NCBI GenBank assembly: GCA_031216635.1
Contig: CM062274.1
Coordinates: forward strand, 26,484,913 to 26,548,912
Direction of reading: 5' to 3'
DNA from: Dissostichus eleginoides
Lineage: Eukaryota
DNA: 64,000 bases
In this document: positions 1 through 53,795 of the stretch, in pieces
Numbering within the stretch: position 1 is the stretch's first letter
Layout: every line of letters begins with the position of its first letter
Notes under the pieces: model-generated
Told to the model about the DNA's origin: nothing
The model's database searches: none
The model's input: the letters and a program-made list of their open reading frames with translations, nothing else
Translations under genes and position numbers: made by a program

Positions 1-1347
1 ACTTTGCTTGAATTGATAAATCACATTTATTTAGTGTTTTTGTTTAGGATCAATATCAGTAATAAATAAATAGTCATTTAATTAGTTTTTGCCAACTTTT
101 GTTTGCCTCAATTAAATTAGTATTTGTATTAATCCTTTTACATATTAACATAAAAACAGCTTCTTAAAAACATCTGCTGATAAGCCCACAGTTCCTGAAA
201 GTTATAATATTGAAGGTGCCTTATTGAGCAGAATATGATACAAAAAAGAAAAATAACAACTGTCAAACGTTATTGAATAATTCCGACATATACAACAATA
301 CTCTAGTCTCAGCATTGGTCTAACTTGTTCAAATGTGTAAAATAGCCTGTGTGTTATACAGTATGTTTCCTAACAATGACCTCTTGTGGCCATGTGAGTA
401 CAAATCTATTGCAGGTATTTAACATTCATAGGTACCAGCCACTTTGTACATACTGTAAGAACTAGTGCTGTAAATTAATACAAACATGTATGTATGTTTA
501 TCACAATAATAATCTGGGTCTTTAACTTCAGGATTTGCTCATGTTTCATTTAAAAAGTAAACTGCCTTTTATTTGAAGTTAATTACAGTACTTTAGTAAA
601 TGGGCAAATTAGATTTAGCTAGATCAGGAAATGGCAACTTTCTTTGAGCATGCATACAAAGATAAAAACCGTATGAATATATTGTGGGTGTATTACAAGT
701 TATCTGACAAGATAAAGCTCTTCCACTTCAACAAACTGCTGTTATCAGATAAAAAGCAGCTTTACCGCTTCACCTTTTTTTCTCAAAGTGAACAACTCCT
801 TCCTGAAAGTTATCTTTGAAATGATGTGCACTTTTTAGATTTATGATCAGCGGCAGACAGAGTACTTCAGAGGAAAGACATTTGTGTTTATCAGCATTTA
901 AAATTAAGATCCCTGCTTTCACAACAATGTCATGCTATTCTCTTTTTATGAACCAGTAAAACAGATCTATACATGATCAATACATTTTGAATATTATTCA
1001 TCTTTATGGCTTTGTAAAATTATATGTCTCTATTTAACACAAAGGACTTGATTATCTGACTTGTTTCAGTCTTAAATCTTTATTGTCAATGTGCTTTGGC
1101 AATAGTATGTTTTAAATGTGGGCATGTCAATAAAGCTTATTTGAATTTGTCTTGATTCTCAGCGTGAGAAAAAAAAACAATTTCCTTGTATTTTTTAGAT
1201 AGATATATAGATAATGATCTGGTACAGTTGCTAGGACTACCTTTAGCACTTAAGAGGTGTGACATATTGATGGTGTTTTGTTTTGTTTTATCCTTTACGC
1301 TATTGCCATTTTCCCAGACATCAGACATCATATTTCAAACTATCTAG

Positions 1348-5627: not shown

Positions 5628-5638
5628 AAGGGGGGGGC
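5628..5638 (+). promoter_or_regulatory. Polypurine tract
   Basis: aaggggggggc directly abuts the 3'LTR start TGTGATG. Confidence 0.7.
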
Positions 5639-8439: not shown

Positions 8440-8640
8440 TTACATTTCACCTGTTAGACGCTTTTATCCAAAGCCACTTACATACATTCAATACTGTGTG
8501 CAATCCCCAATGGGCTGAAGTGTCTTACCCAGGGAATCAACGAGATGCTGACTGCAGCACTGGAACCAGAGGCCTGTACTACGAATCTAGTTCAACATAT
8601 CCTGGATATGTTTGAGATAGCCGGTTGACCTAATCCAAAA
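8440..8640 (-). mobile_element. SINE (reverse orientation) with the teleost conserved tail
   Basis: agacgcttttatccaaagccacttac is the reverse complement of the gtaagtcgctttggataaaagcgtct SINE tail. Confidence 0.45.
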
Positions 8641-12596: not shown

Positions 12597-14379
12597 CATT
12601 GGTGTCTGTTTGGATACCAAACATGCAATCAAGCTTTTACAATTTATTTTAAATTGAGTTATTTAAAACTATTCAAAATGCCTGATTTCATGAATAAGAA
12701 TTACGTTTCTTGTTTCGATAAATCCTAATTAGTTTAGATTAATGTCAGTAATAAATAAATAGTCATTTAATTTTTTTTTTGCCAACTTTTGTTTGCCTCA
12801 ATTAAATTAGTGTTTGTATTAATCCTTTTACCTATCAACATAAAAACAGCTTCTTAAAAACATCTGCTGATAAGCCCACAGTTCCTGAAAGTTATAATAT
12901 TGAAGGTGCCTTATTGAGCAGAATATGATACAAAAAAGAAAAATAACAACTGTCAAACGTTATTGAATAATTCCGACATATACAACAATACTCTAGACTC
13001 AGCATTGGTCTAACTTGTTCAAATGTGTAAAATAGCCTGTGTGTTATACAGTATGTTTCCTAACAATGACCTCTTGTGGCCATGTGAGTACAAATCTATT
13101 GCAGGTATTTAACATTCATAGGTACCAGCCACTTTGTACATACTGTAAGAACTAGTGCTGTCAATTAATACAAAAATTTATGTATGTTTATCACAATAAT
13201 AATCTGGGTCTTTAACTTCAGGATTTGCTCATGTTTCATTTAAAAAGTAAACTGCCTTTTATTTGAAGTTAATTACAGTACTTTAGTAAATGGGCAAATT
13301 AGATATAGCTAGATCAGGAAATGGCAACTTTCTTTGAGCATGCATACAAAGATAAAAACCGTATGAATATATTGTGGGTGTATTACATGTTCTCTGACAA
13401 GATAAAGCTCTTCCACTTCAACAAACTGCTGTTATCAGATAAAAAGCAGCTTTACCGCTTCACCTTTTTTTCTCAAAGTGAACAACTCCTTCCTGAAAGT
13501 TATCTTTGAAATGTATATATCTATGAAAATAATTTCAAATGAAGATCCCTGCTTTCACAACAATGTCATACTATTCTCTTTTTATTAACCAGTAAAACAG
13601 ATCTATACAGGATCAATACATTTTGAATATTATTCAATTAATGCAAATATTGGTTTGAGTGACAGAGAAGAGGAAGCGACCTGGAAATGGGTGGATGGAT
13701 CTCCACTGAATCTGACGTAAGGCTCTACTTTGGTTTAAATACAGACGCTGGTTTATGTTGTGACTTTTCTAACTTAATTTACACTGTGAGGGCATAAAGT
13801 CACATGTTTCTGTAATGGGAGTCAACACAACACACAGGATGCATTTCAAGTAAATGTTCAAATTTGATATAACTAGATCACGCAATGGCAACTTTTTTTT
13901 GACACGCATACCAAGATAAACACCTCAAAAGAAATACTGTAGGTATACTGAATGTGATTTGACAAGATAAAGCTCTTGCATTTCAACCAATTGGTGTCAT
14001 CAGATATAAAAGTGACTCTACCACCTCCTATGTTTTTCAACGTGAATAAATCTAAACGTTGTATGTTTATGATCAGCAGCAGACAGAATGCTTCAGAGGA
14101 AAGAAATTACAAAAAGTGAAATGCACACAACTGATGTTTGGTATTTGGCTTCATCAAGTGTCAATTGTTTTTTGTTAAGGAGGTCATACATAGTTTATTT
14201 GTGTAATCATAAACAAATGTAAGTATTTTGAAATGTTGTTGAAATCCAGATGTTACATTTATCTACCTGTTACAAAAAATAAAAACTATCAAAAATAATG
14301 AATCAAGTACTGCCAATATTATTTACCGAATAGATTTCATTGCCAGTCAGTCTTAAAATGTCTGTAATTGTTTTACCTC

Positions 14380-14945
14380 TCAGCAAAAGACTCTTTCAGG
14401 TATCCACCTAAACATTCGGGAAGGGGAAGTGAGAGTTGATAGAGGGGCTTCAATGTGGCTATAGTTGCAAATAAACCTTCTGTAAAAGTTAGCAAAACCC
14501 AGGAACTTTTGTAGTTGCTTACAGCTTTCCAAACTGGACCTGTCATGGACTGCTTTCACCTTGGCCAGGTCCATTCTTACTTGTCCTTTGGCCATGATGT
14601 AGCTGGGAAAAGAGACCGTAGAAGCATGAAACTCACTACTCTGCTTTAACGAACATGTGATTCTCCAAAACAGCTGTGCTTCACATGCTCATTTTGTTCA
14701 TTTAAAAAAAAATATCTGAATGTCATCAAGGTATATGAAAACAATATGTTAAATATGTGCCCAAGGACAACATTTACCAGGTTTTGGAATATAGCAGGGG
14801 CATGTGTGAGTCCAAACGGCATCACCAGGTTTTCCAAATGGCCAGAGGGGTGTTGAAAGCCGTCTTCCACTCGTCTTCTTTACGGATCCGGACTGGGAGG
14901 TTTGCATTTCGGAGATCAGGTTTGGTGAAAATTGTGGCATAGGGA
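14380..14945 (-). mobile_element. LTR-retrotransposon pol (RT/connection) fragment
   Basis: Minus ORFs read ...[24 protein letters not shown] and ...LQKFLGFANFYRRFICNYSHIEAPLSTLT, which are classic gypsy/ERV RT motifs. A duplicate lies at 23214-23790. Confidence 0.7.
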
Positions 14946-15224
14946 GTCAAAGGCAAAGTTCATTAGAGACAAGGGATACTTACACCGATCAACCATAACA
15001 TCATGACCACTGACAGGTGAAGTCAAAATTATGGGGGGGGACCCTAAAAATGACCTTTCTTATTAGGGGATCGCCCCCTGATAATGGTGGTGGAGATCTA
15101 CAGTGAGGTGAAGAGGACTGTGCAAGTCTTGTAAATGGAAGGGAAACCAGAAAAAACTGGAATGATCTGCAGTGAACTACCTTTCTGCAATGGATCTGTG
15201 AAACAATGGCTTAGATTATGGCTG

Positions 15225-15440
15225 TGAGGCAGTGGGTTTGTCTTCAAATGGGAAGGTTGTGGGTTCAACCCCTGCTCCTGCCGTCAACATGTCGCTGTAT
15301 CCCACTTAACCCCAAATTGCTCCCATGGCCAATGTGTGAATGTAAGCTTCCTTGAGCAGGGGGCTCTTTCTTTGGCTGACCCTGCCTATGAATACTAGTA
15401 AAGACTGCTTTATATAAAATGCAGTCCATTTACCAATACA
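15225..15440 (+). mobile_element. tRNA-derived SINE
   Basis: ggctgtgaggcagtgggtttg...gtgggttcaacccc gives A- and B-box-like motifs. Copies lie at 24056-24270, 28672-28800 and 39670-39800. Confidence 0.5.
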
Positions 15441-16691
15441 TGTGTTAATACTTTTACAATTTATGCAAAATGACTTCCAAAGTGCTTTTGTATTTGCCAC
15501 ATTATGGAGAAAGAGATTCTACATCAACAAGTGGTTGGAGGTCAGGAATGAAGATATTGGTTTGAGTTTTGGCCAAATTTGACTGCTTGTTACTGGGAAT
15601 ATTACATGGGAAATTAGGATGTTTAGCATGTATCTTTATTTATACGTGCTCATGACCATCATATGCAATTAAAGAAAGCTACTTATTGAAAAAAACTCCC
15701 ATTGGGATTTTAGCCTTTGAGACAATTTACATGCACAAAAACCTATATAACACACTAGGGAAGGGAAACCCCAAAAAGCATAACAGGGCCTCTTTTAGAC
15801 ATTAATTGGTGGATGGGTTTTGTACAGGATATTTTCACACACTCTGAAACGTGTAACTTCCTATTTAAAAAAAATAAGAAGAGAAATGTAACCAAAAGAC
15901 ATGACATTTTTACTACTTTGAAAAGAGCCTTCTGCAAACAATGGATAAATTGTACGTACTGTACTACTAAGTTTAAAATGATAGATAGATTTACAAATGT
16001 ATTCTTGTATAAGTTCACCTGTCTAGTCCTGTCATTGCACTTCCTGTTTTATTTTGTACTTACCTTTCCCTCTCGTTTCAGAGCTCTCCTGCCCTTGTGT
16101 GTCTGTTGCAACCTTTTCCCATTACCTCGTGTATATATAGTCCTCGTCTCCCTTTGTCCTGTGCCGGTTCGTCTTGTGCCTTGTGCCATCAAGAGAGCCA
16201 GCTTTTCATGCCAAGAAACATTTGTAGCTGCTTTCACAATGAAGACATGCTATTCTCTTTTTATTAACCAGTAAAATAGATCTTTACAGGAACAGAATAT
16301 TTTGAATATTATTCATCTTAATGGCTTTGTAAGATTATATGTCTCTATTTAACACAATCGACATGATTATCACACTTGTTTCAGTCTTAAATCTGTATTG
16401 TCAATGTGCTTTGGCAATAATATGTTTTTAATATAGTCATATCAATAAAGTGTATGTGAATTTGTCTTGACACTCAGTGTGAGAAATAAACAGTATTTCC
16501 TGATAGTCTTGTTTTTTTTTTTAATAGATATGAAAAGGATGTTCAAGGTTCAAGGTTCTTTATTTGTCATACGAACATAGCTACAGAGTAGTTATGTCGA
16601 TGAAAATCTTAGGTCACAGGCTTCTCCAACAGTGCAACACAATAATACAGAAAAACAGAAAAACATAGTGCAAGTAAATATTAAAAAGTAT

Positions 16692-18992: not shown

Positions 18993-19894
18993 CATGCAAC
19001 ATGCAATCATGCTTTTACAATTTAGTTTAAATTGAGTTATTTAAAACTATACAAAATGCCTGATTTCATGAATAAGAATTACATTTCTTGACTCGATAAA
19101 TCACAATTTGTTTTTTTTGTGTTTTCTTTTCGGATTAATATCAGTAATAAATAAATAGTCATTTAATTTGATCAGGAAATGGCAACTTTCTTTGAGCATG
19201 CATACAAAGATAAAAACCGTAAAAATATATTGTGGGTGTCTTACATGTTATCTGACAAGATAAAGCTCTTCCACTTCCACAAACTTCTGTTATCAGATAA
19301 AAAGCAGCTTTACCGCTTCACCTTTTTTTCTCAAAGTGAACAACTCCTTCCTGAAAGTTATCTTTGAAATGATGTGCACTTTTTAGATTTATGATCAGCG
19401 GCAGACAGAGTACTTCAGAGGAAAGACATTTGTGTTTATCAGCATTTCAAATTAAGATCCCTGCTTTCACAACAATGTCATGCTATTCTCTTTTTATGAA
19501 CCAGTAAAACAGATCTATACAGGATCAATACATTTTGAATATTATTCATCTTTATGACTTTGTAAAATTATATGTCTCTATTTAACACAATGGACTTGAT
19601 TATCTCACTTGTTTCAGTTTTAAATCTTTATTGTCAATGTGCTTTGGCAATAGTGTGTTTTAAATGTGGGTATGTCAATAAAGCTTATTTGAATTTGTCT
19701 TGACTCTCAGCGTGAGAAAAAAAAACAATTTCCTTGTATTTTTTAGATAGATATATAGATAATGATCTGGTACAGTTGCTAGGACTACCTTTAGCACTTA
19801 AGAGGTGTGACATATTGATGGTGTTTGTTTTGTTTTATCCTTTATGCTATTGCCATTTTCCCAGACATCAGACATCATATTTCAAACTATCTAG

Positions 19895-20527: not shown

Positions 20528-21168
20528 CATTGGTGTCTGTTTGGATACTAAAGATGCAATCATGCTTTTACAATTTATTTTAAATTGAGTTATTTAAAAT
20601 TATACAAAATGCCTGATTTCATGAATAAGAATTACGTTTCTTGACTCGATAAATCACAATGTGTTTTTTTTTAGGATTAATATCAGTAATAAATAAATAA
20701 TCATTTAATTTGTTTTTGCCAACTTTTGTTTGCCTCAATTAAATTAGTATTTGTATTAATCCTTTTACATATCAACATAAAAACAGCTTATTAAAAACAT
20801 CTGCTGATAAGCCCACAGTTCCTGAAAGTTATAATATTGAAGGTGCCTTATTGAGCAGTATATGATAAAAATAAGAAAAATAAAAACTGTCAAACATTAT
20901 TGAATAATTCAGACACATACAACAATACTCTAGACTCAGCATTGGTCTAACTTGTTCAAATGTGTAAAATAGCCTGTGTGTTATACAGTATGTTTCCTAA
21001 CAATGACCTCTTGTGGCCATGTGAGTACAAATCTATTGCAGGTATTTAACATTCATAGGTACCAGCCACTTTGTACATACTGTAAGAACTAGTGCTGTCA
21101 ATTAATACAAACATGTATGTATGTTTATCAGAATAATAATCTGGGACTTTATCAGCATTTGAAATTAA

Positions 21169-22362
21169 GGCGAGACACCCCAGGCAAAAACATCGTTTTT
21201 CATGCACTGGTCAATTTTGAGATGTTGTCCTATTTTGATTCCATAACATGTTTTCTTTCAGGCTTTTGGAAGGAAAACGTACAAAATACACATTTAAGTG
21301 TTTATTTTACTATAGTTTGTCTATTTGCGTCTGTAGATTTCTCCTAAATTCACCAAAAGTTAGCTTTCTAACGTAACATAAAGTACCGCGACCGCTGTTT
21401 GCGCCATGTAATCAGAGCTATCGTTGGAAAGCTCCGTCTCTCCTGCACAATCTCATCGGATCCAAATATGGTCATTTCCTTTGTATCAGCAACCAATCGT
21501 GAAAGTAAAATGGGGGTCTTAAACCAAAAAACGAAATCTCATTGGCTGGTGTCAATTTCTGACAACGTGATTCGTTCAGATGCGTCACGTGGTGTGCTAA
21601 AACACTTCCTGGTTAGCTTTCCGCTAGAAATTTAAATCTCAAAATGGCAAAAGAACGGCGAAAAAAGTGTTCACAGAGAAGAGGACAACAATTGTCACTT
21701 GCACGAAGCAATGTTAGATAAAAAAACAAATGACCCCGAGCATGAAATACCTTCACGGAGTGCGTCGAGGTGCAAGCTGTCATCCAGAGAACAGGAGGGT
21801 TTAGCTAGCGCCTCACAGCAATCTTTAAGGGTCGTTTTCTCAAAATGAGTTTTTTCTCCTACTCTTGAGTTTGAAATGTCCACTTCAGTAGCACGTACAT
21901 ACACCAAACCTTCCAGTTATGTTCCTATCAATATTATGAAGGCTTTTACAGAAGGGTTTGTTCATATATCATTCATAGCCTGAATTATATAACATTGTAT
22001 ACATAAAAACGTGGCGAAAATTTATATTTTAGGGCTGTTGACAGTATTTTCTGATTTATGGAGTGATAAAAAGAGATATCCAAAATCCCTTCTGTAAAAG
22101 CCTTAGATACTAATATGACTACAAAATGACACAAGAAATTTGAACCTGGCTTTATCCAATGTTCAGATTTCGGTTCCTGCAATGTGTTAAAATATGCGCA
22201 TATTTAATGAGATAATGGATCATTTGCATATTTAAACATGCTATTTCAGAAAACCTGTAATACAAAAAACAATTGCCTTATTGTAAGTAATTAACTGGAG
22301 AAATGTCTAGCTGATATCTTTAAGTTAAAAAAAATTACCCTATTCACCTGGGGTGTCTCGCC
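21169..22362. mobile_element. Non-autonomous TIR DNA transposon (about 1.2 kb) flanked by a TTAA target-site duplication (piggyBac-type TSD)
   Basis: The termini GGCGAGACACCCCAGG...CCTGGGGTGTCTCGCC form a 16-bp perfect inverted repeat. TTAA sits at 21165-21168 and 22363-22366. The empty site ...aaattaagatccctgctttcac is seen in the paralogous repeat copies at 895-930 and 19441-19470. There is no transposase ORF inside. Confidence 0.8.
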
Positions 22363-25300
22363 TTAAGATCCCTGCTTTCACAACAATGTCATACTATTCT
22401 CTTTTTATTAACCAGTAAAACAGATCTATACAGGATCAATACATTTTGAATATTATTCAATTAATGCAAATATTGGTTTGAGTGACAGAGAAGAGGAAGC
22501 GACCTGGAAATGGGTGGATGGATCTCCACTGAATCTGATGTAAGGCTCTACTTTGGTTTAAATACAGACGCTGGTTTATGTTGTGACTTTTATAACTTAA
22601 TTTACACTGTGAGGGCATAAAGTCACATGTTTCTGTAATGGGAGTCAACACAACACACAGGATGCATTTCAAGTAAATGTTCAAATTGATATAACTAGAT
22701 CACGCAATGGCAACTTTTTTTTGACACGCATAGGCTACCAAGATAAACACCTCAAAAGAAATACTGTAGGTATACTGAATGTGATTTGACAAGATAAAGC
22801 TCTTGCATTTCAACCAATTGGTGTCATCAGATATAAAAGTGACTCTACCACCTCCTATGTTTTTCAACGTGAATAAATCTAAACGTTGTATGTTTATGAT
22901 CAGCAGCAGACAGAATGCTTCAGAGGAAAGAAATTACAAAAAGTGAAATGCACACAACTGATGTTTGGTATTTGGCTTCATCAAGTGTCAATTGTTTTTT
23001 GTTAAGGAGGTCATTTATAGTTTATTTGTGTATTCATGTAATCATGAACAAATGTAAGTATTTTGAAATGTTGTTGAAATCCAGATGTTACATTTATCTA
23101 CCTGTTACAAAAAATAAAAACTATCAAAATAATGAATCAAGAACTGCCAATATTATTTACCGAATAGATTTCATTGCCAGTCAGTCTTAAAATGTCTGTA
23201 ATTGTTTTAACTCTCAGCAAAAGACTCTTTCAGGTATCCACCTAAACATTCGGGAAGGGGAAGTGAGAGTTGTTAGAGGGGCTTCAATGTGGCTATAGTT
23301 GCAAATAAACCTTCTGTAAAAGTTAGCAAAACCCAGGAACTTTTGTAGTTGCTTACAGCTTTCCAAACTGGACCTGTCATGGACTGCTTTCACCTTGGCC
23401 AGGTCCATTCTTACTTGTCCTTTGGCCATGATGTAGCTGGGAAAAGAGACCGTAGAAGCATGAAACTCACTACTCTGCTTTAACGAACATGTGATTCTCC
23501 AAAACAGCTGTGCTTCACATGCTCATTTTGTTCATTTAAAAAAAAAAATCTGAATGTCATCAAGGTATATGAAAACAATATGTTAAATATGTGCCCAAGG
23601 ACAACATTTACCAGGTTTTGGAATATAGCAGGGGCATGTGTGAGTCCAAACGGCATCACCAGGTTTTCCAAATGGGCAGAGGGGTGTTGAAAGCCGTCTT
23701 CCACTCGTCTTCTTTACGGATCCGGACTGGGAGGTTTGCATTTCGGAGATCAGGTTTGGTGAAAATTGTGGCATAGGGGTCAAAGGCAAAGTTCATTAGA
23801 GACAAGGGATACTTACACCGATCAACCATAACATCATGACCACTGACAGTGTGAAGTCAAATTATGGGGGGGACCCTGAAATGACCTTTCTTATTAGGGG
23901 ATCGCCCCTGATAATGGGGTGGTGGAGATCTACAGTGGGTGAAGAGGACTGTGCAAGTCTTGTAAATGGAAGGGAAACCAGAAAAAACTGGAATGATCTG
24001 CAGTGAACTACCTTTCTGCAATGGATCTGTGAAACAATGGCTTAGATTATGGCTGTGAGGCAGTGGGTTTGTCTTCAAATAGGAAGGTTGTGGGTTCAAC
24101 CCCTGCTCCTGCCGTCAACATGTCGCTGTATCCCACTTAACCCCAAATTGCTCCCATGGCCAATGTGTGAATGTAAGCTTCCTTGAGCAGGGGGCTCTTT
24201 CTTTGGCTGACCCTGCCTATGAATACTAGTAAAGACTGCTTTATATAAAATGCAGTCCATTTACCAATACATGTGTTAATACTTTTACAATTTATGCAAA
24301 ATGACTTCCAAAGTGCTTTTGTATTTGCCACATTGTATATATGGAGAAAGAGATTCTACATCAACAAGTGGTTGGAGGTCAGGAATGAAGATATTGGTTT
24401 GAGTTTTGGCCAAATTTGACTGCTTGTTACTGGGAATATTACATGGGAAATTAGGATGTTTAGCATGTATCTTTATTTATACGTGCTTTATACGTGCTCA
24501 TGACCATCATATGCAATTAAAGAAAGCTACTTATTGAAAAAAACTCCCATTGGGATTTTAGCCTTTGAGACAATTTACATGCACAAAAACCTATATAACA
24601 CACTAGGGAAGGGAAACCCCAAAAAGCATAACAGGGCCTCTTTTAGACATTAATTGGTGGATGGGTTTTGTACAGGATATTTTCACACACTCTGAAACGT
24701 GTAACTTCCTATTTAAAAAAAATAAGAAGAGAAATGTAACCAAAAGACATGACATTTTTACTACTTTGAAAAGAGCCTTCTGCAAACAATGGATAAATTG
24801 TACGTACTGTACTACTAAGTTTAAAATGATAGATAGATTTACAAATGTATTCTTGTATAAGTTCACCTGTCTAGTCCTGTCATTGCACTTCCTGTTTTAT
24901 TTTGTACTTACCTTTCCCTCTCGTTTCAGAGCTCTCCTGCCCTTGTGTGTCTGTTGCAACCTTTTCCCATTACCTCGTGTATATATAGTCCTCGTCTCCC
25001 TTTGTCCTGTGCCGGTTCGTCTTGTGCCTTGTGCCATCAAGAGAGCCAGCTTTTCATGCCAAGAAACATTTGTAGCTGCTTTCACAATGATGACATGCAA
25101 TTCTCTTTTTATTAACCAGTAAAATAGATCTTTACAGGAACAGAATATTTTGAATATTATTCATCTTAATGGCTTTGTGAGATTATATGTCTCTATTTAA
25201 CACAATCGACATGATTATCACACTTGTTTCAGTCTAAATCTGTATTGTCAATGTGCTTTGGCAATAATATGTTTTTAATATAGTCATATCAATAAAGTGT

Positions 25301-25732: not shown

Positions 25733-28674
25733 ATGGAGGAATTCTATGTCAATGTTGACGATATCAAACCCCTTAGCTCAAGATCATCTGAAAAACAAGA
25801 AGGTAAGAGTATCAGACAGAGTGCACTGTGGATTTTGGATTTATTAAACTCCCTGGTTTTCTCTGTGTTCAGGTCTCAGGAGACTTTCTCAGAGCGTCTG
25901 TTCTCGGTCTGGGGCTGCTGGGTGTTTTCCTGCTGGCTGGACTCATCGGCCTCGCTGTCCACTGTGAGTCTTTCTTTTAATACGTTTAATAATGTCATTT
26001 TGAACGTGTGATTTTCTAGAGCAATATTCTGCTCTGAAAGATGCACATTTGACCAAAATCTCTATCGTTTTTCTACTTTTCTCCTAGGGCCAAATTGGGA
26101 AAACATTTACTTTGGTTTGTGTCAGTATGATTGCATCAGGTAATTTAAGAAACATCTATTTTCATTCCAGACCATAACTCAGTAGGTGTTGCAGCTGAGC
26201 ATCTCCAGGCCAGTGATCAGCTGATCAACCAGCTGAAGGCCAACCTCACTGAGCGTCTCCAGGCCAGAGATCAGCTGATCAACCAGCTGAAGGCCAACCT
26301 CACCGAAAAGACCAGAGAGGTGGACAGGCTTCAGTGTTTGATGGACAAGGGTGAGTGCTTCATGTGGGGTTTTTGCATAGGGCTCGGTATGTGTAAGATA
26401 TCAATTATCATAATATGTTTTACAAAATACCTCGATATTGATAGTCTAAGGCTGACTATTGATCCGTTCATAAAATAGTTACAGAATGACACTTTTCATT
26501 AATGATAATTAAGAATTAGTTTTTAATGACTAAGTTGTGAGTGATTTAATTTATAGTTTGTTTTATTTTTCTTCACCCACCATATTTATATTTCTCTGTA
26601 AACTATGCTTATGGCCAGTTTCCTTGTTTAAATTACTTTTAATATAAGCAATAGGAAGAAGAACTTAGAGGTAGTTTGTTCCAGATATTTGCAGCATAAT
26701 AATAAAAAAGGATAACAAGGTTTCAATCCAATTTAGAACTGTTGCCGAAAGTCAGACCCAGTTTTCCAGTCGGTCTAGAAACTAACACCGAGATGTTGCC
26801 ACTGTCTGTGTTTAAGTGGAAGTCATTGAAGACTTTAGCAAGATCAGTCTCAGTGCTGTGGTGCCTGACTAGATCACATCGAAACAGTTATTTAAACCCC
26901 AAAAAAAAGAAGTAGTTGTTCTGCAATGAAATGTGTGATCTCTTTTGATCCCTCTAAAAATGCTTAATGAATATGTTTTTTCATTTTTATTACAAAAGTG
27001 ACATATAATGCACTCAAGAGTTCCATATTCCAGCAGTTAAAGCAGTAAATCAACAAGATCTTAACACTTTTACAGAGAAAACGTGTCCTGCAGGATGGAG
27101 GAAGTTTGGTTGTTCCTGTTATCTCCTCTCTACTGAGAAAGCTTCTTGGGAACAAAGCAGAGACAACTGCAGAGCCAGAGGAGCAGATCTGGTGATCGTA
27201 GACAGTTATGAAGAACAGGTAATGTGTGCTGCTCTAACACTTGTGATTGTATAACCCCCTGCTTTTATCAATCAATAATGTTTTTATTGTACATATAGTA
27301 GCACATTTGCGTATAAGCTATAATGATTATGTTACAACAATGGTGTTAATTACATATTTCTGAGCTAATAAAAAGGGAATAGTATGCTGAATGTTGATGT
27401 CCATCCCTGTAAACTGCATTTGTGAACAGGAATTCATCACCAGCATGATCAAGGAACAAACTTGGATTGGTTTGAATGACATAAACCAAGAAGGGACCTG
27501 GAAATGGGTCGATGGAGCTCCACTGACTCTGAAGTAAGGCATACAGAACATATTCATATATTTTGGAGTAGCTGCATCCTACTGATGTATATCGGTGTTT
27601 TTTTTATGACTGTCCAAACATTTATTAATTATTATCAATTTCAGAATTAACTAACATTTTAACATTCATTGCAAATAAAGCTAATAATCTAAAGACATGC
27701 ATACACACACATCTAGAGATGTGCAAAGAGGATAACATTTTTGGATATTGGGTAAAAAATGAATTCAATTTTAATTTTAATGTGCCATTATTCAATGTCC
27801 CTTTTTGCATAATACACTAGAAACCCAGGCAGAAAAAATAACAATTCAAAGCAGTTAGTTCACTTTAAAGACATAACAATTAAGATTCTGCCACAAATAA
27901 GCTGAAAGGCACAGTTATAGGTGTTAAAGTGTGTATGTATTTTAACGAGAGGTGTGATGAAAAAGGTGGAAAGAATAGTTTAGGAATCTTGGTTCGAGTT
28001 GAGAAGCTGCTGATCATAACCATAACCATTGAAAGTTCAAATTATTTCAACAACTCTTTTCATAAAGATCTCTTCTACATTTTGTGGTATCAAAAGAGAA
28101 TAATTAAACCAGTGCCACTTTGAGAATAGAATGAGAAATGGTAAAGCGTCTTTCTTTTCTTGAAACAGCAATTCGCCCTAAAATAGAGGAAAGGCGATGA
28201 AAGTAAATGAGAAGATTTCGCAAGAAAAAGGGTTGAGCTGAGGGTGTGAATGTGTGGTAGGCTATAAGCTGTGGGTTTTTAAATAGGGAAATACATAAAG
28301 CAGCTTTTATGTGTTGGCCACATGTGGCAGCTGTTTTTTAACCTAAATTGGCATGGCCTTTAGTGTGTTAATGTGTCCGAATGTTGTCTTTCGCTATGTG
28401 TTTTAATAGGTAAATGCTATATATGAAATGTATATGAAAAGCAATCTCAAGCAGAACGCATTACATCTATCACATTTGGGGGGGAACCTGAAAATGAACT
28501 TTCCTGCTATTACCTCCTAGGTACTGGGGATCGACCCCTGATAATGGTGGTGGAGATCCAGTGTGGGGTGAAGAGGACTGTGCAAGTCTTGTACCTGGAA
28601 GGGAAACCAGAACAAACTGGAATGATCTGCGGTGTGCTACCCGTCTGCAATGGATCTGTGAAAAAATGGCTTAA
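25733..28674 (+). pseudogene. CD209-like C-type lectin, gene 3 (type B, TPD terminal exon); 1-nt insertion frameshift in the TM exon
   Basis: Exons are 25733-25802 ([24 protein letters not shown]), 25873-25963, 26171-26350 (neck, 2 repeats: [54 protein letters not shown]), 27076-27218, 27430-27533 ([34 protein letters not shown]) and 28521-28674 (YWGSTPDNGGGDPVWGEEDCASLVPGRETRTNWNDLRCATRLQWICEKMA*). Exon 2 is 91 nt against 90 in the paralogs: gtctcaggagactttctc versus gtcccaggagacttctc. This shifts the TM frame unless it is a sequencing error. Confidence 0.7.
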
Positions 28675-29054
28675 CTTGTGGCTGTGAGGCAGTGGGTTTG
28701 TCTTCAAATAGGAAGGCTGTGGGTTCAACCCCAGCTCCTGCCATCAACATGTCAATGTAGCCCACTTAACCCAAATTGTTCTCTTGGCCAATGTTTGAAT
28801 GTTATGTGCTGTTTACACGATAACGCAAAAGGTTGTATCCGCAACTTTTCTCTTTCGTTTAGCCCGTTCGTTCACACGAGGCCGTAACGGAAACGTGGAA
28901 ACGGACCCCGCAAACGATAACGGGTCCCAAGGTGGATAGATCTGCAACCGGAACGCTCTGAGGGGGCAAACGGCTCTGTGTGTACGCCCTATACGATAAT
29001 TTTCCTGATAATGATGAGCCATAGCCCCACCTCTCCCCACCTCTGCTGCTCACT

Positions 29055-29110
29055 GCTGTAGCATGGTCAGTAGCTACTGTCAGTAGCTACTGCTACTGAC
29101 CATGCTACAG
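29055..29110. repeat. Perfect 19-bp-arm hairpin (inverted repeat)
   Basis: ctgtagcatggtcagtagc ... gctactgaccatgctacag. A duplicate lies at 40053-40108. Confidence 0.8.
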
Positions 29111-29779
29111 ATGTTAGTGCACAATCTACAGCTCGACCATGCTACAGATCAGATGTTAGTGCAAAATCTACAGCTCCTCTACCACAACCACCGGCAACAA
29201 GTGGACATGGAGAATTACATGAACTACATGTTGCTAAATCCACCGCGGGGCATAAACAGAAGGGCAACCATGCTCTGGGTCTTCTTCGCTGCTTTTGGTG
29301 TATTTTGTGGCGGAAGTTACTACGCCACTTACAGGCCCGGCATATGTACTACAGCGTTTCCAGTGGTCTCGTGCAGAAGTACAGCGCCACTTACAGGCCC
29401 GGCATATGTACTACAGCGTTTCCAGTGGTCTCGTGTGAACGTACACGTTAAATGAGCCGAATGCGTGTGAACGGAAGACTTTTTTGAAAATGAATTAGGT
29501 GCGTAAACGCAAACGTTCCCGTGTAAATGGGGTCTTAGCTTCCTTACCCCTCCTATTGTCTTCGTTTTCCCCCCTTTACTTTGGTCTTTGCAGTCAAATT
29601 TGACCGGTCCTGTTTTAACTGCTATTACATTAACACAAAAATCATTAATCATCACCAAATTTCATTTAACACCCTTTCAAACTGTAAATATTGTATCAGA
29701 CTACTGGTATACATGAAAAACTGCAATAAATATACAAAGAATAGACACTGAACATGTATTGCGTGTGCCAGGTGTGATC

Positions 29780-29970
29780 CATGTGGGGGGATGGGCCCAT
29801 AAGAGCGGGAAATGTATCAAATTGTTCTGTGTGTGTGTGTGTGTGTGTGTGTTTATGTGTGCCAGGTGTGATTTGCATGGGGGGATGGGCACATAAAGGG
29901 GGGGGAACACATCTAGAGTATGTGTGTGTGTGTGTGTGGGTGTTTGTGTGTGTGTTTTTTATCTGATCCG
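29780..29970. repeat. About 100-bp tandem duplication with embedded (GT)n tracts
   Basis: gtgccaggtgtgat(c/t)(c/g)catggggggatgggc(c/a)cataa... occurs twice, each followed by a (GT)n tract. A copy lies at 40778-40970. Confidence 0.8.
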
Positions 29971-30734
29971 GATGGTTACTAATTCCTTTTCTTTATGGCG
30001 GTCATTTTTGACCGGGAACACCAAAATTCGATGAAAGTGGTGATCAGCAATTGTATATGTTCAAATGTCTACTGTGAAGGATATCATAAAGCCTTAATGC
30101 AATCGAATGTAAAACAAAAAAGTTATGATTGATGAAAGTAGTAAATCGTCAGAATTGACCCGAAGACAACAGGAGGGTTAAGCAGCCTGGCACTTTGTTT
30201 GGCTGCCCCTGCGTATGAATATGTGTGAATGCTAGATATATATACAGTATGCTTTAACGAGTTATAAAGACTGGATAAGCGCTATATAAAATGCAGTCAA
30301 TCACCAATACATTTGTTAATACTTTTACACTTTACACTTGTTTTACGCATTTAAAAGTGTTATTGTATGTGCAATACTGTATGGAGAGAGAAAGAGAGTC
30401 TATATCAACAAGTGAGGTCAGGAATGAAGATATTGGTTAAGTTTTGGCCAAATTTGACTGCTTGTTACTGGGAATATTAACCATGGGAAATTAGGATGTT
30501 TAGCATGTTTTATACGTGCTCATGACCATCATATGCAATTAAAGAAAGCTACTTATTGTACTGCTTCTATCCTATGAAATAATAAAGATTGTCCTGAAAT
30601 GCACTTTATTTTTAGGATAATAAAGGTGACTTTAGCTGTTTCAATCACAAGTTCATCTTTGTATTTTGTGCCTCTGTGACATGTCTCCATGCTTTAATGT
30701 TCAAAAAGCTCTTTATTTTTCTCATACTGCCTGT

Positions 30735-30830
30735 CTGAAACCAGAGCCCAGTCTGCTCTGATTGGTTAGCTGGCCGGCTCTGTTGTGATTGGTCAACTGC
30801 TTAGAGATGTCCCGCCCCTTAACCTATCAC
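30735..30830 (+). promoter_or_regulatory. Orphan promoter-like module: two inverted CCAAT (ATTGG) boxes plus an Sp1 GC-box
   Basis: ctctgattggttagctggccggctctgttgtgattggtcaactgcttagagatgtcccgcccc. A duplicate lies at 41748-41843. Confidence 0.35.
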
Positions 30831-31149
30831 GTTCATTGTGTTGGAGCGGTAGCAATACGAGTGTAACACAGTGATGTGACAATGTTCTGAATGTAAACAA
30901 AGGAGTACAATGGAGGTGTTTTAAGGCAGGGGGGGACTAAGGCACTGTCTGTAGAGGCTGCTGCGCCAATGTCTCCAAATCATGGAAGAGAACCGAGTAG
31001 AACTCTTCAAAGGGTTAATTAAAATCGAGATAACATGATTGTCTGACTCCTCTAGGCGACACATGAATTTGTACATTACATTTCTTAAAAGGGCTTGACA
31101 GGTACCCCCACGTTAACAAACAGCTGGCTGGCACTGTGCCATCCTGGTA

Positions 31150-32100
31150 CCCTCACCAGCAACCGTATAGCATCATTGTATGCAATTTTAGTTTTTGCAT
31201 GCTGCTAGCCTTGTAGTTACTCCACAGGTGAGCCGTGTACAATGGTGTACAGAAAGCTTTAAAAAGTGATACCTTGACATCTACAGAGCACTTGTGAAAT
31301 GTCCGCATTAATATGTTTGCCTGGGCATACAGTTTGCAGCGTTGTCTATGGATGTCTTTGTCATCTGTGAGATCATCAGAGATATAATGACCAAGGTACT
31401 TAATCTCACTGCACACAAGAAGAATGTTGCTACTGAGAATAAAATTAGGAAATACAGCCTTTTTATCCTCTTTACTTCGCACAATCATGATGCTACTCTT
31501 CTTGGCATTATACTTAATATTAAAATCAATGCCATACTGGGAACAAATCCGAACAGAAGCTGTTGTAAGCCTGCACTGTACGGGGAAAAGATGATTAAAT
31601 CATCTGCGTACATAAGGTGGTTGACAACAGTATCACCGATGACACTGCCAGTTTTACACAAGTTCAGTTTCCTAGACGGATCATCAATGTACAGATTAAA
31701 CAACAAAGGAGATAAAATCCCACCTTGCTTGACCCCATTACCAACATAAACATTTTCAGACACAGTATTGCCCCACTTCACCTGCATAGTCTGATGTGCA
31801 TACTAAAAGCCTAAGATCCTTATTATGTACTTGGGTACCCCTCTTTGGCACATTTTTTCAAATGATTTGAAATGATTCAGTCTATCAAATGCCCTAGAAG
31901 CATCAATAAAATACAGAAACATGGTGGAATTTTGGCTTCTATATTTTGCTATAATGTCTTTTAAAGCAAAAATACACACATCTGTGCCGTGTTTTCTTTT
32001 AAAACCAAACTGGTTGTCAGCTGTGGTAATATACCTTTCCAGCTTATCCAACATAATTTTCTCCAGCACTTTGGAGAGAATGCTAGCTAAAGCAATAGGT
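31150..32100 (-). mobile_element. Non-LTR (LINE) reverse-transcriptase fragment
   Basis: Minus ORFs give GVKQGGILSPLLFNLYIDD...LMYADDLIIFS (YADD box) and, in the copy at 42863-43920, NYRPIALASILSKVLEKIM...QFGFKRKHST...FIDASRAFDRLNH. These are RT domains 1-5. Confidence 0.8.
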
Positions 32101-32544
32101 CTGTAATTATCAATGCCATAATTTTCCCAGCTTTATCCTTGATGACTGGCACAAGTAGCACAGATAACATGGAAACTGGTAAGACACCAGGAAACCAGTA
32201 AGACACAGAGCAAGAAGAGGAGCAAGCTTAAGACTGGCATCTTTTAAGTGTTCAGCTGAGATGACATATGACAAGCATGATCATTTCTGACGTGGAGCTA
32301 ATCTAAACTAAACATTGAATACTGCTTTATATTCCTCCATCTTGTGACTGTGTAACTCCCTCTCTTGTATATCAGCATGTGAAGGACACTGTTCAGGAAC
32401 TAATTGTACCAAATGCTCTGTATGTGATGACTACTTCCATTCTTGCAAGGATAATAAATACATGTATCCTGATTATTGAAGCTCAAGCCGGTGAAGAGTG
32501 ATATTTTCCTAACAATTAGCATGAAAACACCTACCACAAACTCA

Positions 32545-32715
32545 GAGTGAGTGTTGGGGGTGCGGCAGAACCCGTGCACGCTGTCGTATCCCTCCGGAAC
32601 CTCGGTCAGGTTGAGGTCTTTCTTATGGACGTCAGTGCACTGACCCAACGCCACATCACACACCAACAGCAGCCGAGAGCCGTCTGTCTCGCTGGGCTTG
32701 GAGTATTTCAAACTG
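32545..32715 (-). pseudogene. Isolated PARP-catalytic-domain exon fragment (mono/poly-ADP-ribosyltransferase family)
   Basis: The minus strand reads ...KYSKPSETDGSRLLLVCDVALGQCTDVHKKDLNLTEVPEGYDSVHGFCRTPNTHSEF, bounded by an AG acceptor and a GT donor. It matches the PARP signature ...SKSxNY...LLLxEVALG.... No neighbouring PARP exons were found. A copy lies at 44259-44429. Confidence 0.5.
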
Positions 32716-34195
32716 GTGATGTGGATAAGGAGAGTGGAAAACAGTCTCACTACAGATGAGTGTGTTGTTGCCATCTGGTTCCCCATAGGATGAAATGAGG
32801 ATCAAAGACTCATTAGAAAAGCACCTTTTAGATCAGGGGTGTCCAAACTACGTCCCGGGGGCCAAATGCGGCGCGAGGATTTTGACTATGGGTGAATTCT
32901 GGGGGGGCTTGTGTGGTGATTGACATTATTCACCCACGGAACTATGGGTTTGGGTATTGTTCCGCACGGACATTTGAGTTATACGGACTTCCTGTTTACC
33001 CCGGTCTTGCTTCCCGGGCTTGAAGCTGTTGACATGTTGTTCAGATGCTAAATAAAAGTCTAGCTTGTACCTTTGATACCCCGCCTCCGACTCCCGTCTC
33101 TCGGCACTACAATACTTAAGAAATTGCTGGATATCACAGTCCTTATACTGTATCTTATCAGTTTGATTGAGTATTATTGTGTAGGTCCTTTTTATTTTAC
33201 TGTTACTTTGATGTGTTTCTAATGAGTCAGTCAAATTAATTTATTTTCATATGCCATATTCATATGTATCACACACGTAAGGGTAAGACACAAACCTATT
33301 TAACAAATGCAATGCAATGGATAAGCTTAATTTTCACTGAAGTCACAGATAACGTCATATCTAATATTTAAACAAATCATTTCCTTGTCACTAAAGCATT
33401 GACTACGCTATTCATCGTCCTTAAATGCAGGCTCTAAGTTACATGTTCCGTTCTACAGCCACAATAAGGCTGTTTCTCAAGTTGATGATAATAAAATGAA
33501 AAGAGGCATTGGTAATATTATTAAAAACAACAATGTTTGGGTCGTTCTTCGGATAGGCGGTTAGCTGCAATAAATAACTCCAGTTCAACAAACCATATTA
33601 CAATATCTAAGGGAGCGTTATTTCTGGACCATCTTGAAATGTGACGTTCATATTTTAAAGATACACACATTTTATTGTGAGGTTGATTTAAAATACACTA
33701 AGCCTCTCTTCAACAATACGTTGACGTTAGCTAGTCTATTTTATGCCATAGTAGAGCATAGCGAATTTAAATGAACCTTAACAATGCATACAGTAACCTA
33801 ACTAGCAAACTAACTATCTAACGTACAAGGAAGACCTTATTTTACCAACCTCACACAGAAGCCTTTTGGTATACAGTAGCATCCCACTTAATTTTTACAC
33901 TTCTCTATTACGTTTAACTTGGATGCTACGCATAGCATCGTTAGCACAGATGGAGCTACGATTGCTCAAATGCTAACCCAACTCTAAACATTCATTAACA
34001 TTAGCTAAATAAAAACACCAGTAACATAACATAAAGAACGCAGGGTTGACTTACCGAAGACACTGCATTCATGGACGGTCTGTTTTAACTGCAGATAAAT
34101 CCTATATTTGCATGACGAATAGTCCACCAGGAGCCAACACAACAAACACGGCCGAGTTCAAGTAGTGTTCTCCGCATGAGCTGAGCCCCTGTAGC

Positions 34196-34240
34196 ATCAC
34201 GGAGCTAATGGAGCTAACGGAGCTAACGGAGCTAGCAGTG
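34196..34240. repeat. Minisatellite (ggagctaa[ct])n, 3.5 copies here
   Basis: ggagctaatggagctaacggagctaacggagctagc. The duplicate at 45908-45955 carries one more unit. Confidence 0.8.
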
Positions 34241-50577: not shown

Positions 50578-52803
50578 CATTGGTGTCTGTTTGGATCCTA
50601 AACATGCAATCATGCTTTTACAATTTAGTTTAAATCGAGTTATTTAAAACTATACAAAATGTCTGATTTCATGAATAATAATTACTTTGCTTGAATTGAT
50701 AAATCACATTTATTTAGTGTTTTTGTTTAGGATCAATATCAGTAATAAATACATAGTCATTTAATTAGTTTTTGCCAACTTTTGTTTGCCTCAATTAAAT
50801 TAGTATTTGTATTAATCCTTTTACATATCAACATTAAAACAGCTTATTAAAAACATCTGCTGATAAGCCCACAGTTCCTGAAAGTTATAATATTGAAGGT
50901 GCCTTATTGAGCAGAATATGATACAAAAAAGAAAAATAACAACTGTCAAACGTTATTGAATAATTCCGACATATACAACAATACTCTAGTCTCAGCATTG
51001 GTCTAACTTGTTCAAATGTGTAAATAGCCCTGTGTGTTTATACAGTATGTTTCCTAACAATGACCTCTTGTGGCCATGTGAGTACAAATCTATTGCAGGT
51101 ATTTAACATTCATAGGTACCAGCCACTTTGTACATACTGTAAGAACTAGTGCTGTAAATTAACACAAACATGTATGTATGTTTATCACAATAATAATCTG
51201 GGTCTTTAACTTCAGGATTTGCTCATGTTTCATTTAAAAAGTAAACTGCCTTTTATTTGAAGTTAATTACAGTACTTTAGTAAATGGGCAAATTAGATTT
51301 AGCTAGATCAGGAAATGGCAACTTTCTTTGAGCATGCATACAAAGATAAAAACCGTATGAATATATTGTGGGTGTATTACAAGTTATCTTTGAAATGATG
51401 TGCACATTTTATATTTATGATCAGCGGCAGACAGAGTACTTCAGAGGAAAGACATTTGTGTTTATCAGCATTTAAAATTAAGATCCCTGCTTTCACAACA
51501 ATGTCATGCTATTCTCTTTTTATGAACCAGTAAAACAGATCTATACAGGATCAATACATTTAGAATATTATTCATCTTTATGGCTTTGTAAAATGATATG
51601 TCTCTATTTAACACAAAGGACTTGATTATCTCACTTGTTTCAGTCATAAATCTGTATTGTCAATATGCTTTGGCAATAGTGTGTTTTAAATGTGGGCATG
51701 TCAATAAAGCTTATTTGAATTTGTCTTGACTCTCAGCGTGAGAAAAAAAAACAATTTCCTTATATTTTTGAGATAGATATATAGATAATTATCTGGTACA
51801 GTTGCTAGGACTACCTTTAGCACTTAAGAGGTGTGACGTATTGATGGTGTTTTGTTTTATCCTTTACGAAAATGGAAATAGCGTAAAGTTTACGCTATTT
51901 CCATTTCCCCAGACATTAGACATCATATTTCAAACTATCTAGATGAAAATATTTTTATAGGGCAGTTTTTTTTATAAGTTAATATCATTTTGAATTTGTA
52001 ATTTTCAAAACCACTTTCTGCACTCTGCCTTTTACTTAAGTTTGTATCAGTATGAGGTATTTTCTGTTTAGAAATGGTGTCTCTTGATCATTTCAGGTTT
52101 TATATTTCATAACAAACTTGATTTCAGATTTTCAATTTACTTCAGGTCATCACTAAAATAGATTCCACTGCCCAGATTACCCGCGTCTGTTCTCTCAATC
52201 CCATGATGCTCCACTCCGACACGGGGCGGCAGCAGACCACTAAAGAGAGGGTAAACATTGTTAAAGTAAAAAAAATCCAAATAAAATGTCTTAGTTGTCC
52301 ATTTGAAGACCTTCACTAAACTGTACCTGTCTGCAGTACAATATCATCAAATATATCACGTTGCTAAAGCTACGCTCCACTTTGAGTCTAAGCGCTCAAT
52401 TCAGATGAACTGCTTGTTTGGAGTTGTTCACATTATTCTTAAAAGGAACCAACATCAGAATCCAATTTGAACTGGTTGCACAAAGGAACTATAACACTCA
52501 CGTTACACACAGCATAGACTATGATCTATGAGCTTCATTTATCCCTAAATACAGCAGGGGGATCCCAGCAAAACTGCCTTTAATTAAATGTAGAGCCAAA
52601 GAGCCCAGGAAAGTAAACCTTTTTTCTAATTTCAAGTCAGAACAGTATACCATGTTTTCTTGGTGGTACACCCTCCGTACAGAAGTCAGTCTGGATTTAA
52701 AAAATCAACAAGTACTTTTTCGTCTCAGAAATTATCTTTATCAGTTTCCTTGCAAAAAAACCTGGGATTGTCCAACAGAAATTGACAGATACATGTCAGG
52801 ATG

Positions 52804-53738: not shown

Positions 53739-53795
<57 letters not shown>

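What the first reader, a model, noticed from the sequence alone, without database searches (positions are those of the whole stretch)
21169..22362. TTAA-flanked 16-bp-TIR element inserted in only one copy of the tail repeat
The element starts GGCGAGACACCCCAGG and ends CCTGGGGTGTCTCGCC, and is bounded by TTAA on both sides. The four other copies of the same repeat show the unoccupied site aaatTTAAgatccctg. That gives a clean empty-site/filled-site comparison inside a single window and shows the insertion post-dates the duplications. A TTAA TSD is the hallmark of piggyBac-superfamily transposition, although the termini are not the canonical piggyBac CCC.../...GGG. The element is 1.2 kb and has no ORF, so it is a MITE-like non-autonomous family whose autonomous partner is unknown.
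Basis: seen in the sequence. Interest (0 to 1): 0.6.

Follow-up and report, generated by a model that had tools for sequence, protein, structure and literature searches.

The report
Non-autonomous TTAA-targeting DNA transposon insertion
A 1.2-kb defective cut-and-paste transposon sits in a TTAA site in one copy of a duplicated lectin-gene unit of a toothfish-like (notothenioid) fish; its ends fit the Kolobok rather than the piggyBac superfamily, and it is an ordinary kind of genomic repeat.

Summary
Window 21169-22362 (1194 bp) has perfect 16-bp terminal inverted repeats, GGCGAGACACCCCAGG / CCTGGGGTGTCTCGCC. TTAA flanks it on both sides. Four paralogous units in the window carry the unoccupied site aaaTTAAgatccctg; in one of them it is mutated to TGAA. 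The host is a notothenioid fish, 98-99.5% identical to a Dissostichus eleginoides contig, and the region is a CD209-like C-type lectin cluster.

I recovered two further copies outside the window. One is full length (93.7% identity) in a metagenome contig. The other is a right end in a low-coverage contaminant contig. Both sit at unrelated sites, and homology again stops exactly at TTAA.

The element has no coding capacity: there is no ORF longer than 78 aa and no Pfam hit. It is therefore a non-autonomous TTAA-specific DNA transposon.

The piggyBac label is not supported. All 157 surveyed piggyBac-like elements start with C, whereas this one starts GG and ends CC. That is the 5'-RR...YY-3' plus TTAA signature of Kolobok. 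Notothenioids carry autonomous Kolobok elements, and the same window holds a bona fide Kolobok MITE.

No sampled autonomous Kolobok shares this element's termini, so the partner and the formal superfamily remain unproven. The finding is ordinary and of low interest.

The parts
21165..21168 (.). Left copy of the TTAA target-site duplication
   Evidence: inverted repeat I3; empty sites.
21169..21184 (+). Left terminal inverted repeat GGCGAGACACCCCAGG
   Evidence: In L003 the same position reads GGCGAGACACGGCAGG.
21169..22362 (+). Whole non-autonomous element (1194 bp)
   Evidence: It is absent from four paralogous units. It is 93.7% identical end to end to L003:129-1311. No ORF exceeds 78 aa, there are no Pfam hits, and a protein search with the concatenated reading frames found no homologue.
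21500..21643 (+). Internal CpG-rich, promoter-like stretch with CCAAT and inverted CCAAT (cattgg) boxes, CACGTG and cttcctgg, just upstream of the ATG at 21644. This reading is an inference from motifs only.
   Evidence: Read directly from the sequence. The stretch is well conserved in L003.
21644..21721 (+). Relic short ORF MAKERRKKCSQRRGQQLSLARSNVR*. After a 1-bp frame shift it continues to 21845.
   Evidence: An intact 74-aa version (P0226, from a 614-bp ENA metagenome contig) was the only hit among 1.84 billion representative proteins (E=1.6e-5). It is 70% identical to the frame-corrected window ORF and has no Pfam family.
21939..22104 (.). Internal imperfect inverted repeat (35-nt arms, 83% complementary). 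It belongs to the family and is not a later insertion.
   Evidence: I1. It is present in L003 with an 8-bp deletion.
22347..22362 (-). Right terminal inverted repeat CCTGGGGTGTCTCGCC
   Evidence: The last 24 bp are identical in L003 and L131, even though the adjacent L131 interior is only about 78% identical.
22363..22366 (.). Right copy of the TTAA target-site duplication
   Evidence: The same is seen in L003 and L131.
904..907 (.). Unoccupied TTAA site in a paralogous unit
13540..13543 (.). Unoccupied site in the paralogue closest on the right flank; the sequence here is TGAA
   Evidence: Both sites in D. eleginoides locus L132 have the same TGAA state.
19452..19455 (.). Unoccupied TTAA site in a paralogous unit
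51478..51481 (.). Unoccupied TTAA site in a paralogous unit

Best explanation
The element is a non-autonomous (internally deleted, non-coding) class II cut-and-paste DNA transposon. A transposase supplied in trans integrated it into a TTAA tetranucleotide and duplicated that tetranucleotide.

Shown:
- It is an insertion, by comparison of filled and empty sites.
- It has perfect 16-bp terminal inverted repeats.
- TTAA lies on both sides in two independent full copies, and at the one recoverable end of a third copy.
- It has no coding capacity.
- The insertion is younger than a unit duplication that is now about 2% diverged.

Inferred:
- The mobilising enzyme is a Kolobok-superfamily DDE transposase. 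The TTAA duplication plus 5'-GG...CC-3' (RR...YY) termini is the structural signature that separates Kolobok from piggyBac.
- The CpG-rich region and the short MAKERRKK... ORF inside the element are relics of the 5' UTR/promoter and first exon of the lost autonomous ancestor.
For: Insertion and target-site duplication.

Independent copies:
- L003:129-1311 is 93.7% identical. Its flanks are tgttTTAA|...|TTAAagct.
- L131 carries a right end...CTCGCC|TTAA|aggaac.
- In all three copies similarity stops exactly at TTAA. The terminal 24 bp are invariant although the L131 interior is only about 78% identical, which fits selection on a transposase-binding end.

Non-autonomy.

[quoted passage not shown] The same rule is given for T2-MITE/Kolobok (PMC6004289).

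Kolobok is present and diverse in this host clade:
- A Kolobok catalytic-core profile gives its top hits in Gymnodraco, Trematomus, Eleginops, Pseudochaenichthys and Notothenia.
- Full TTAA-flanked autonomous copies occur at L135:7045-13385 and L133.
- The window itself holds a Kolobok MITE at 53206-54046. Both of its ends match the autonomous element in L133/L134.
- Kolobok-T2 expansion in notothenioids is published (PMC10256766, PMC12527291).

A fish Kolobok MITE with short terminal repeats and a TTAA duplication has precedent in the sablefish gsdfX insert (PMC8327909).
Against: No autonomous element with these terminal repeats was found. Three notothenioid Kolobok families and one perch family, each fetched with 10-kb flanks, show no match to the 16-mer at up to 4 mismatches. 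They also show no BLAST similarity to the element.

Their termini begin AGG(G/T/A)..., the canonical T2 'AGGRR', not GGCGAG. By Repbase's terminal-alignment rule (PMC4455052) the element therefore matches none of the sampled Kolobok families.

Only five termini were available to define the target-site duplication. Because TTAA is a palindrome, a TA or TWA duplication with an extra terminal base on the element cannot be formally excluded.

I could not verify Sola-superfamily target preferences in the literature held here.
Confidence: 0.62

Rival explanations
1. It is a non-autonomous piggyBac-superfamily element with atypical termini. A piggyBac-like DDD transposase would mobilise it, with precise excision restoring TTAA.
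For: The TTAA duplication and a 16-bp terminal repeat within the 12-19 bp range reported for piggyBac-like elements (PMC5381638).
Against: In 157 piggyBac-like elements the terminal repeat always starts C[C/A/T][C/A/T], and terminal bases matter for excision (PMC5381638). This element starts GGC and ends GCC in all copies.
Confidence: 0.12
2. The true duplication is shorter than 4 bp. One version is a TWA (3-bp) duplication of a PIF/Harbinger-type element with one extra terminal base. The other is a TA duplication (Tc1/mariner or ISL2EU type) of an element reading AGGCGAG...CTCGCCT, with 17-bp terminal repeats.
For: The palindromic TTAA makes all three readings consistent with the single empty-site comparison. 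GG(C/G)-initial terminal repeats are common in PIF/Harbinger elements; this point is from my own knowledge and was not tested.
Against: All five available junctions show the full TTAA. Under a TA duplication the five outer bases would match by chance at about 0.3^5 = 0.002. Under TTA the figure is about 0.03, and under TAA about 0.09 (my estimates from base composition). The 3-bp readings also make the terminal repeats asymmetric.
Confidence: 0.08
3. It belongs to another or an undescribed TTAA-targeting or 4-bp-duplication superfamily or lineage (for example Sola-like, or a Kolobok lineage outside the T2 group). Its resemblance to Kolobok would then be limited to the two terminal purines.
For: No terminal similarity to any sampled Kolobok. 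The only protein relative of the internal ORF is an orphan 74-aa peptide.
Against: RR...YY plus TTAA is exactly the published Kolobok diagnostic. Kolobok is abundant in the host clade. No positive evidence points to any other superfamily.
Confidence: 0.15
4. It is not an insertion. The 1.2-kb segment would be ancestral to the repeat unit and lost from the other copies.
For: None beyond formal possibility. The cluster is highly rearranged; for example, the filled unit carries a deletion of about 355 bp next to the site.
Against: Four units lack it with breakpoints at exactly the same TTAA and a single TTAA remaining. The segment has perfect terminal inverted repeats. The same segment with the same ends occurs at unrelated loci.
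Confidence: 0.01

Closest known systems
Kolobok superfamily non-autonomous elements (Kolobok-T2 / T2-MITE of Xenopus; the sablefish gsdfX MITE; the element at window 53206-54046)
   Same: All have a TTAA target-site duplication, short terminal inverted repeats, purine-purine 5' and pyrimidine-pyrimidine 3' termini and no coding capacity. They occur in a teleost genome that carries autonomous Kolobok transposase genes.
   Different: The terminus is GGCGAG..., not the AGGRR of T2-type elements. No end-to-end similarity to an autonomous Kolobok was found, unlike the window's own Kolobok MITE. At 1194 bp it is longer than typical MITEs.
piggyBac-like non-autonomous elements (e.g. mammalian MER75/MER85-type MITEs; named from my own knowledge)
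   Same: TTAA duplication and a terminal repeat of 12-19 bp.
   Different: piggyBac terminal repeats start with C and end with G in all 157 surveyed elements (PMC5381638). This element starts with G and ends with C.
KolobokP long terminal direct repeat termini (molluscs and other invertebrates; PMC9587614)
   Same: The terminal motif (A)GGCCGAGAC resembles GGCGAGAC here (supplementary junction figures).
   Different: KolobokP has long terminal direct repeats and no strong target specificity. It is not reported from vertebrates. The resemblance covers about 8 bases and may be chance.
PIF/Harbinger Tourist-like MITEs
   Same: GG-initial terminal repeats and a T/A-rich palindromic target (from my own knowledge).
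   Different: They make 3-bp TWA duplications. Here all five junctions carry the full 4-bp TTAA.

Membership tests
Kolobok superfamily (non-autonomous member) | [quoted passage not shown] | tested here: met
   TTAA at both ends in the window and in L003, and at the right end in L131. A single TTAA remains at the empty paralogous sites.
Kolobok superfamily (non-autonomous member) | Termini 5'-RR ... YY-3' (PMC9587614; PMC6004289) | tested here: met
   5'-GG...CC-3' in all copies.
Kolobok superfamily (non-autonomous member) | Terminal alignment (positions 1-11, at most 1 mismatch) to a known Kolobok family, which is Repbase's rule for non-autonomous elements (PMC4455052) | tested here: not met
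   GGCGAGACACC was compared with AGGGCCCATGT (L133/L134), AGGGGACCTAT (L135), AGGTCCAATAT (Perca, L137) and AGGTCCCATGT (window 53206). None matches. Only these few families were sampled, and Repbase/Dfam themselves could not be queried.
Kolobok superfamily (non-autonomous member) | An autonomous partner with the same ends that encodes a Kolobok DDE transposase | tested here: inconclusive
   About 110 kb around five notothenioid or perch Kolobok transposase genes, plus four short contigs, show no terminal-repeat match and no similarity. The host genome itself could not be searched.
piggyBac superfamily (non-autonomous member) | TTAA target-site duplication | tested here: met
   As above.
piggyBac superfamily (non-autonomous member) | Terminal repeat of 12-19 bp beginning C[C/A/T][C/A/T] and ending ...G (PMC5381638) | tested here: not met
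   The 16-bp length fits, but the element begins GGC and ends GCC.
piggyBac superfamily (non-autonomous member) | A partner encoding a DDD (DDE_Tnp_1_7) transposase; precise excision | not tested
Excision needs population or experimental data.
PIF/Harbinger or Tc1/mariner/ISL2EU (shorter duplication readings) | 3-bp TWA or 2-bp TA duplication with variable outer bases | tested here: inconclusive
   All five junctions show the full TTAA. The chance of this is about 0.002-0.09 under the shorter readings, but n is small and the palindrome is ambiguous.
MITE (miniature inverted-repeat transposable element) | Small size (usually under about 800 bp), high copy number, non-coding, terminal repeats plus target-site duplication | tested here: inconclusive
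   It is non-coding with terminal repeats and a duplication. It is 1194 bp long. Copy number is unknown: there is one copy in the 64-kb window and none in about 110 kb of other notothenioid DNA.

The most novel reading that the evidence does not exclude
The GGCGAGACACCCCAGG family could be mobilised by a transposase lineage that is neither canonical Kolobok-T2 nor piggyBac. That would be a third, undescribed TTAA-targeting lineage, or a Kolobok branch with divergent ends. It could still be active or polymorphic in toothfish, because the insertion is younger than a 2%-diverged segmental duplication and its terminal repeats are perfect. It also places a CpG-rich, promoter-like cassette next to immune lectin exons.
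Probability: 0.08. Interest if true: 0.4.

Novelty: new member of a known kind. Interest (0 to 1): 0.15.

Why it matters
The main value is for annotation. The finding corrects a tempting shortcut (TTAA means piggyBac). It also gives a cleanly bounded consensus fragment, with ends and target site, for a notothenioid DNA-transposon family that could be added to repeat libraries.

The filled/empty contrast inside a tandem CD209-like lectin array is a small dating marker. It shows transposition after the latest unit duplications, in a clade known for transposon expansion.

It does not open a new mechanism or answer an open question.

Tried and rejected
1. The 16-mer scan of metagenome contigs returned at least 120 hits. 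All but L003 are chance matches in GC-rich bacterial DNA.

2. The apparent 3.5-kb 'element' with the same 16-mer at both ends in L012 is an artefact. The whole contig is a palindrome.

3. The two viral-contig scans found nothing of fish origin.

4. A protein search with all long reading frames of the element, concatenated, found no hit. Pfam on the same frames gave nothing. Rfam on the region gave only noise.

5. The full HMMER search with the internal 70-aa frame found only an orphan 74-aa peptide, P0226.

6. I hunted for the autonomous partner with a Kolobok core profile built from Data S5 of PMC9587614. I fetched L133-L141. None shares terminal repeats or sequence with the element.

7. tblastn with nine Kolobok cores against the window and the fetched loci found no transposase relic.

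8. Literature string searches for the terminal repeat in both orientations found 0 papers.

9. An orthologous-site test in D. eleginoides covered only units of the empty TGAA type. The ortholog of the filled unit was not reached. P0062, P0139 and the window's 615-aa gag ORF were not on record.

10. I could not verify Sola target-site preferences in the papers held.

Full report
**Observation.** Reading window 21000-22560 gives ...tgaaaTTAA|GGCGAGACACCCCAGG...CCTGGGGTGTCTCGCC|TTAAgatccctg.... The element spans 21169-22362 (1194 bp) and TTAA lies at 21165-21168 and 22363-22366. Including TTAA, the arms form a 20-nt perfect inverted repeat (I3). The 16-mer occurs nowhere else in the window without mismatch. 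Perfect 16-mer inverted pairs within 3 kb are rare in the window and essentially absent from simulated sequence.

A 24-nt probe built from the two flanks joined through a single TTAA finds four paralogous sites. Sites 897, 19445 and 51471 have an intact aaaTTAAgatccctgc, and site 13533 reads TGAA. Alignments of both flanks confirm that the extra 1194 bp plus one TTAA is the only difference at the junction. Left-flank homology of the filled unit is short (about 22 bp), because this unit also carries a deletion of about 355 bp with ttta microhomology 15 bp upstream. The right flank is homologous for more than 100 bp to all units, and for 2.1 kb at 97.9% identity to unit 13532-15650.

**Host and context.** The window is eukaryotic. 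The exons around the element encode CD209-like C-type lectin domains. A composite of these exons hits notothenioid proteins best: Trematomus, Gymnodraco, Pagothenia, and Dissostichus eleginoides at 90-93% over partial length. The D. eleginoides contig encoding P0033 (L132, GCA_025770515.1) is 98-99.5% identical to the window over kilobases. The window therefore comes from Dissostichus or a very close relative. The lectin array differs in unit number between the two sequences. L132 contains only empty sites, both of the TGAA type. The element lies in non-coding DNA, about 640 bp after a terminal lectin-domain exon and about 115 bp before a truncated lectin exon fragment.

**More copies.** There is no second copy in the window.
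- A scan of metagenome contigs with the 16-mer returned mostly chance hits in GC-rich bacteria. One AT-rich 2.4-kb contig, L003 (Ga0308022_1015944), carries a full-length copy at 93.7% identity. It sits at an unrelated locus and reads tgttTTAA|GGCGAGACACGGCAGG...CCTGGGGTGTCTCGCC|TTAAagct.
- A scan of prokaryotic genome contigs with the terminal 24-mer found a 540-bp contig at 0.8x coverage in a Nocardioides assembly (L131). This is evidently fish contamination. It carries a more divergent right end (about 78% in the adjacent 150 bp) with the last 24 bp identical, followed by TTAA.

In all three copies similarity ends exactly at TTAA. Five of five junctions therefore carry TTAA. The terminal bases are far better conserved than the interior, as expected for a transposase-binding end.

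**Coding capacity.** The longest ORF is 78 aa. A search with all long reading frames concatenated found no homologue, and Pfam found nothing. Rfam found nothing credible.

Internally there is a CpG-rich stretch with CCAAT-type boxes followed by an ATG (21644) and a short, broken ORF. An exhaustive HMMER search with that frame found a single orphan 74-aa peptide, P0226: MAKEQRKKHSQRRRQQLSLARSKARQKTNDPDYEIPSRSASMRKLSS... It comes from a 614-bp ENA contig and is 70% identical to the frame-corrected window ORF. I read this region as a relic of the promoter and first exon of the lost autonomous ancestor. That is inference, and it does not reveal the superfamily.

**Which superfamily.** TTAA duplications are made by two superfamilies.
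- The literature held here states that Kolobok makes TTAA-specific duplications and, unlike piggyBac, has 5'-RR and YY-3' termini (PMC9587614; PMC6004289).
- A survey of 157 piggyBac-like elements found that the terminal repeat always begins C[C/A/T][C/A/T] (PMC5381638).
- This element begins GG and ends CC. It therefore meets the Kolobok structural diagnostic and fails the piggyBac one.

Kolobok is plausible in this host:
- A profile of Kolobok catalytic cores transcribed from Data S5 of PMC9587614 gave its very best hits in notothenioids.
- The fetched loci contain TTAA-flanked autonomous copies: L135:7045-13385 with terminal repeat AGGGGACCTATCATGC, and L133/L134 ending ...CATGACATGGGCCCT|TTAA.
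- The window itself holds an 841-bp Kolobok MITE at 53206-54046. Both of its ends are 85-88% identical to the ends of the L133/L134 autonomous element.
- Published notothenioid genome analyses report Kolobok-T2 expansion (PMC10256766; PMC12527291).

**Limits.** The same approach that linked the 53206 MITE to its autonomous relative found no link for the element under study. There is no terminal-repeat match at up to 4 mismatches, and no BLAST similarity, in about 110 kb around five Kolobok transposase genes or in four short contigs. The sampled Kolobok families all start AGG..., whereas this element starts GGCGAG. By Repbase's terminal-alignment rule (PMC4455052) it matches none of them.

Because TTAA is palindromic, a TA or TWA duplication with an extra terminal base on the element is formally compatible with each single junction. 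The consistency of all five junctions makes those readings unlikely (roughly 0.002-0.09 by base composition) but does not exclude them. I could not query Dfam or Repbase, or the host genome, and I could not verify Sola target preferences.

**Timing.** The filled unit's closest paralogue differs by about 2% and is empty, as are the three other units. The insertion is therefore younger than these duplications. Its terminal repeats are still perfect. The L003 copy differs by 6.3%, so the family has been present for some time or the two copies come from different species.

**Verdict.** This is a real, cleanly bounded insertion of a non-autonomous TTAA-targeting DNA transposon. Its structural hallmarks point to Kolobok (confidence about 0.6) rather than piggyBac (about 0.1). 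The autonomous partner is unidentified. It is a new or unnamed member of a well-known kind of element, in a clade already known for transposon expansion, and it is of low interest.

Noticed in passing
window 53206-54046: An 841-bp TTAA-flanked element with termini AGGTCCCATGTCATGGCCATTTC... / ...CATGACATGGGACCT. Its two ends (240 bp and 170 bp) are 85-88% identical to the two ends of an autonomous Kolobok (Kolobok-2_DR-like transposase) in Trematomus (L133) and Gymnodraco (L134). They also match a 343-bp MITE at L135:6015-6357. It is a bona fide Kolobok-T2 MITE.
   Followed up: yes
L131:100-382 (read on the minus strand): The third copy of the element abuts another TTAA-flanked MITE of about 265 bp, with termini AGGAACAGTCCACC... 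/ ...GGTGAACTGCTCCT (T2-type 'AGGRR'). The two elements share one TTAA, which suggests adjacent or nested TTAA insertions.
   Followed up: partly
window 21140-21165 versus 520-900 and 13210-13535: The filled lectin unit lacks about 355 bp that the other units carry immediately 5' of the insertion site. The junction has ttta microhomology. The unit is also a hybrid: its left flank resembles the TTAA-type units, and its right flank resembles the TGAA-type unit at 13533.
   Followed up: partly
window 55887-56414: Perfect 76-bp inverted-repeat arms 376 bp apart (GGCCGCTAGGGACATTATTCAG...). This is a foldback-like element or palindrome, and the repeat continues imperfectly into the flanks.
   Followed up: no
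window 8569-8585 and 9655-9671: A perfect 17-bp inverted pair (GAGGCCTGTACTACGAA) 1.1 kb apart. These may be the ends of another DNA transposon.
   Followed up: no
window about 27000-48100 versus L132:1-10900: The window carries an extra tandem unit of about 11 kb (lectin plus a PARP-like fragment plus retroelement pieces; 27112-37261 and 38123-48097) relative to the D. eleginoides contig. This is copy-number variation in the CD209-like lectin array.
   Followed up: partly
window 2911-5900: A 615-aa gag-like ORF with a CCHC zinc knuckle, followed by pol-like ORFs, in a GC-rich (48-53%) segment. It is a retroelement inserted in the cluster. Its exact protein is not on record in the contig index.
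   Followed up: no
L012 (Ga0137420_1313884): A soil-metagenome contig that is a palindrome of itself over its whole length (an assembly foldback). This produced a misleading inverted pair of the 16-mer.
   Followed up: yes
L137:6902-14515 (Perca fluviatilis): A complete 7.6-kb Kolobok with terminal repeat AGGTCCAATATGTAAT and a TTAA duplication. It carries a transposase gene and a second gene with a P2RX7_C (KolX-type) domain, as described for Kolobok in PMC9587614.
   Followed up: partly
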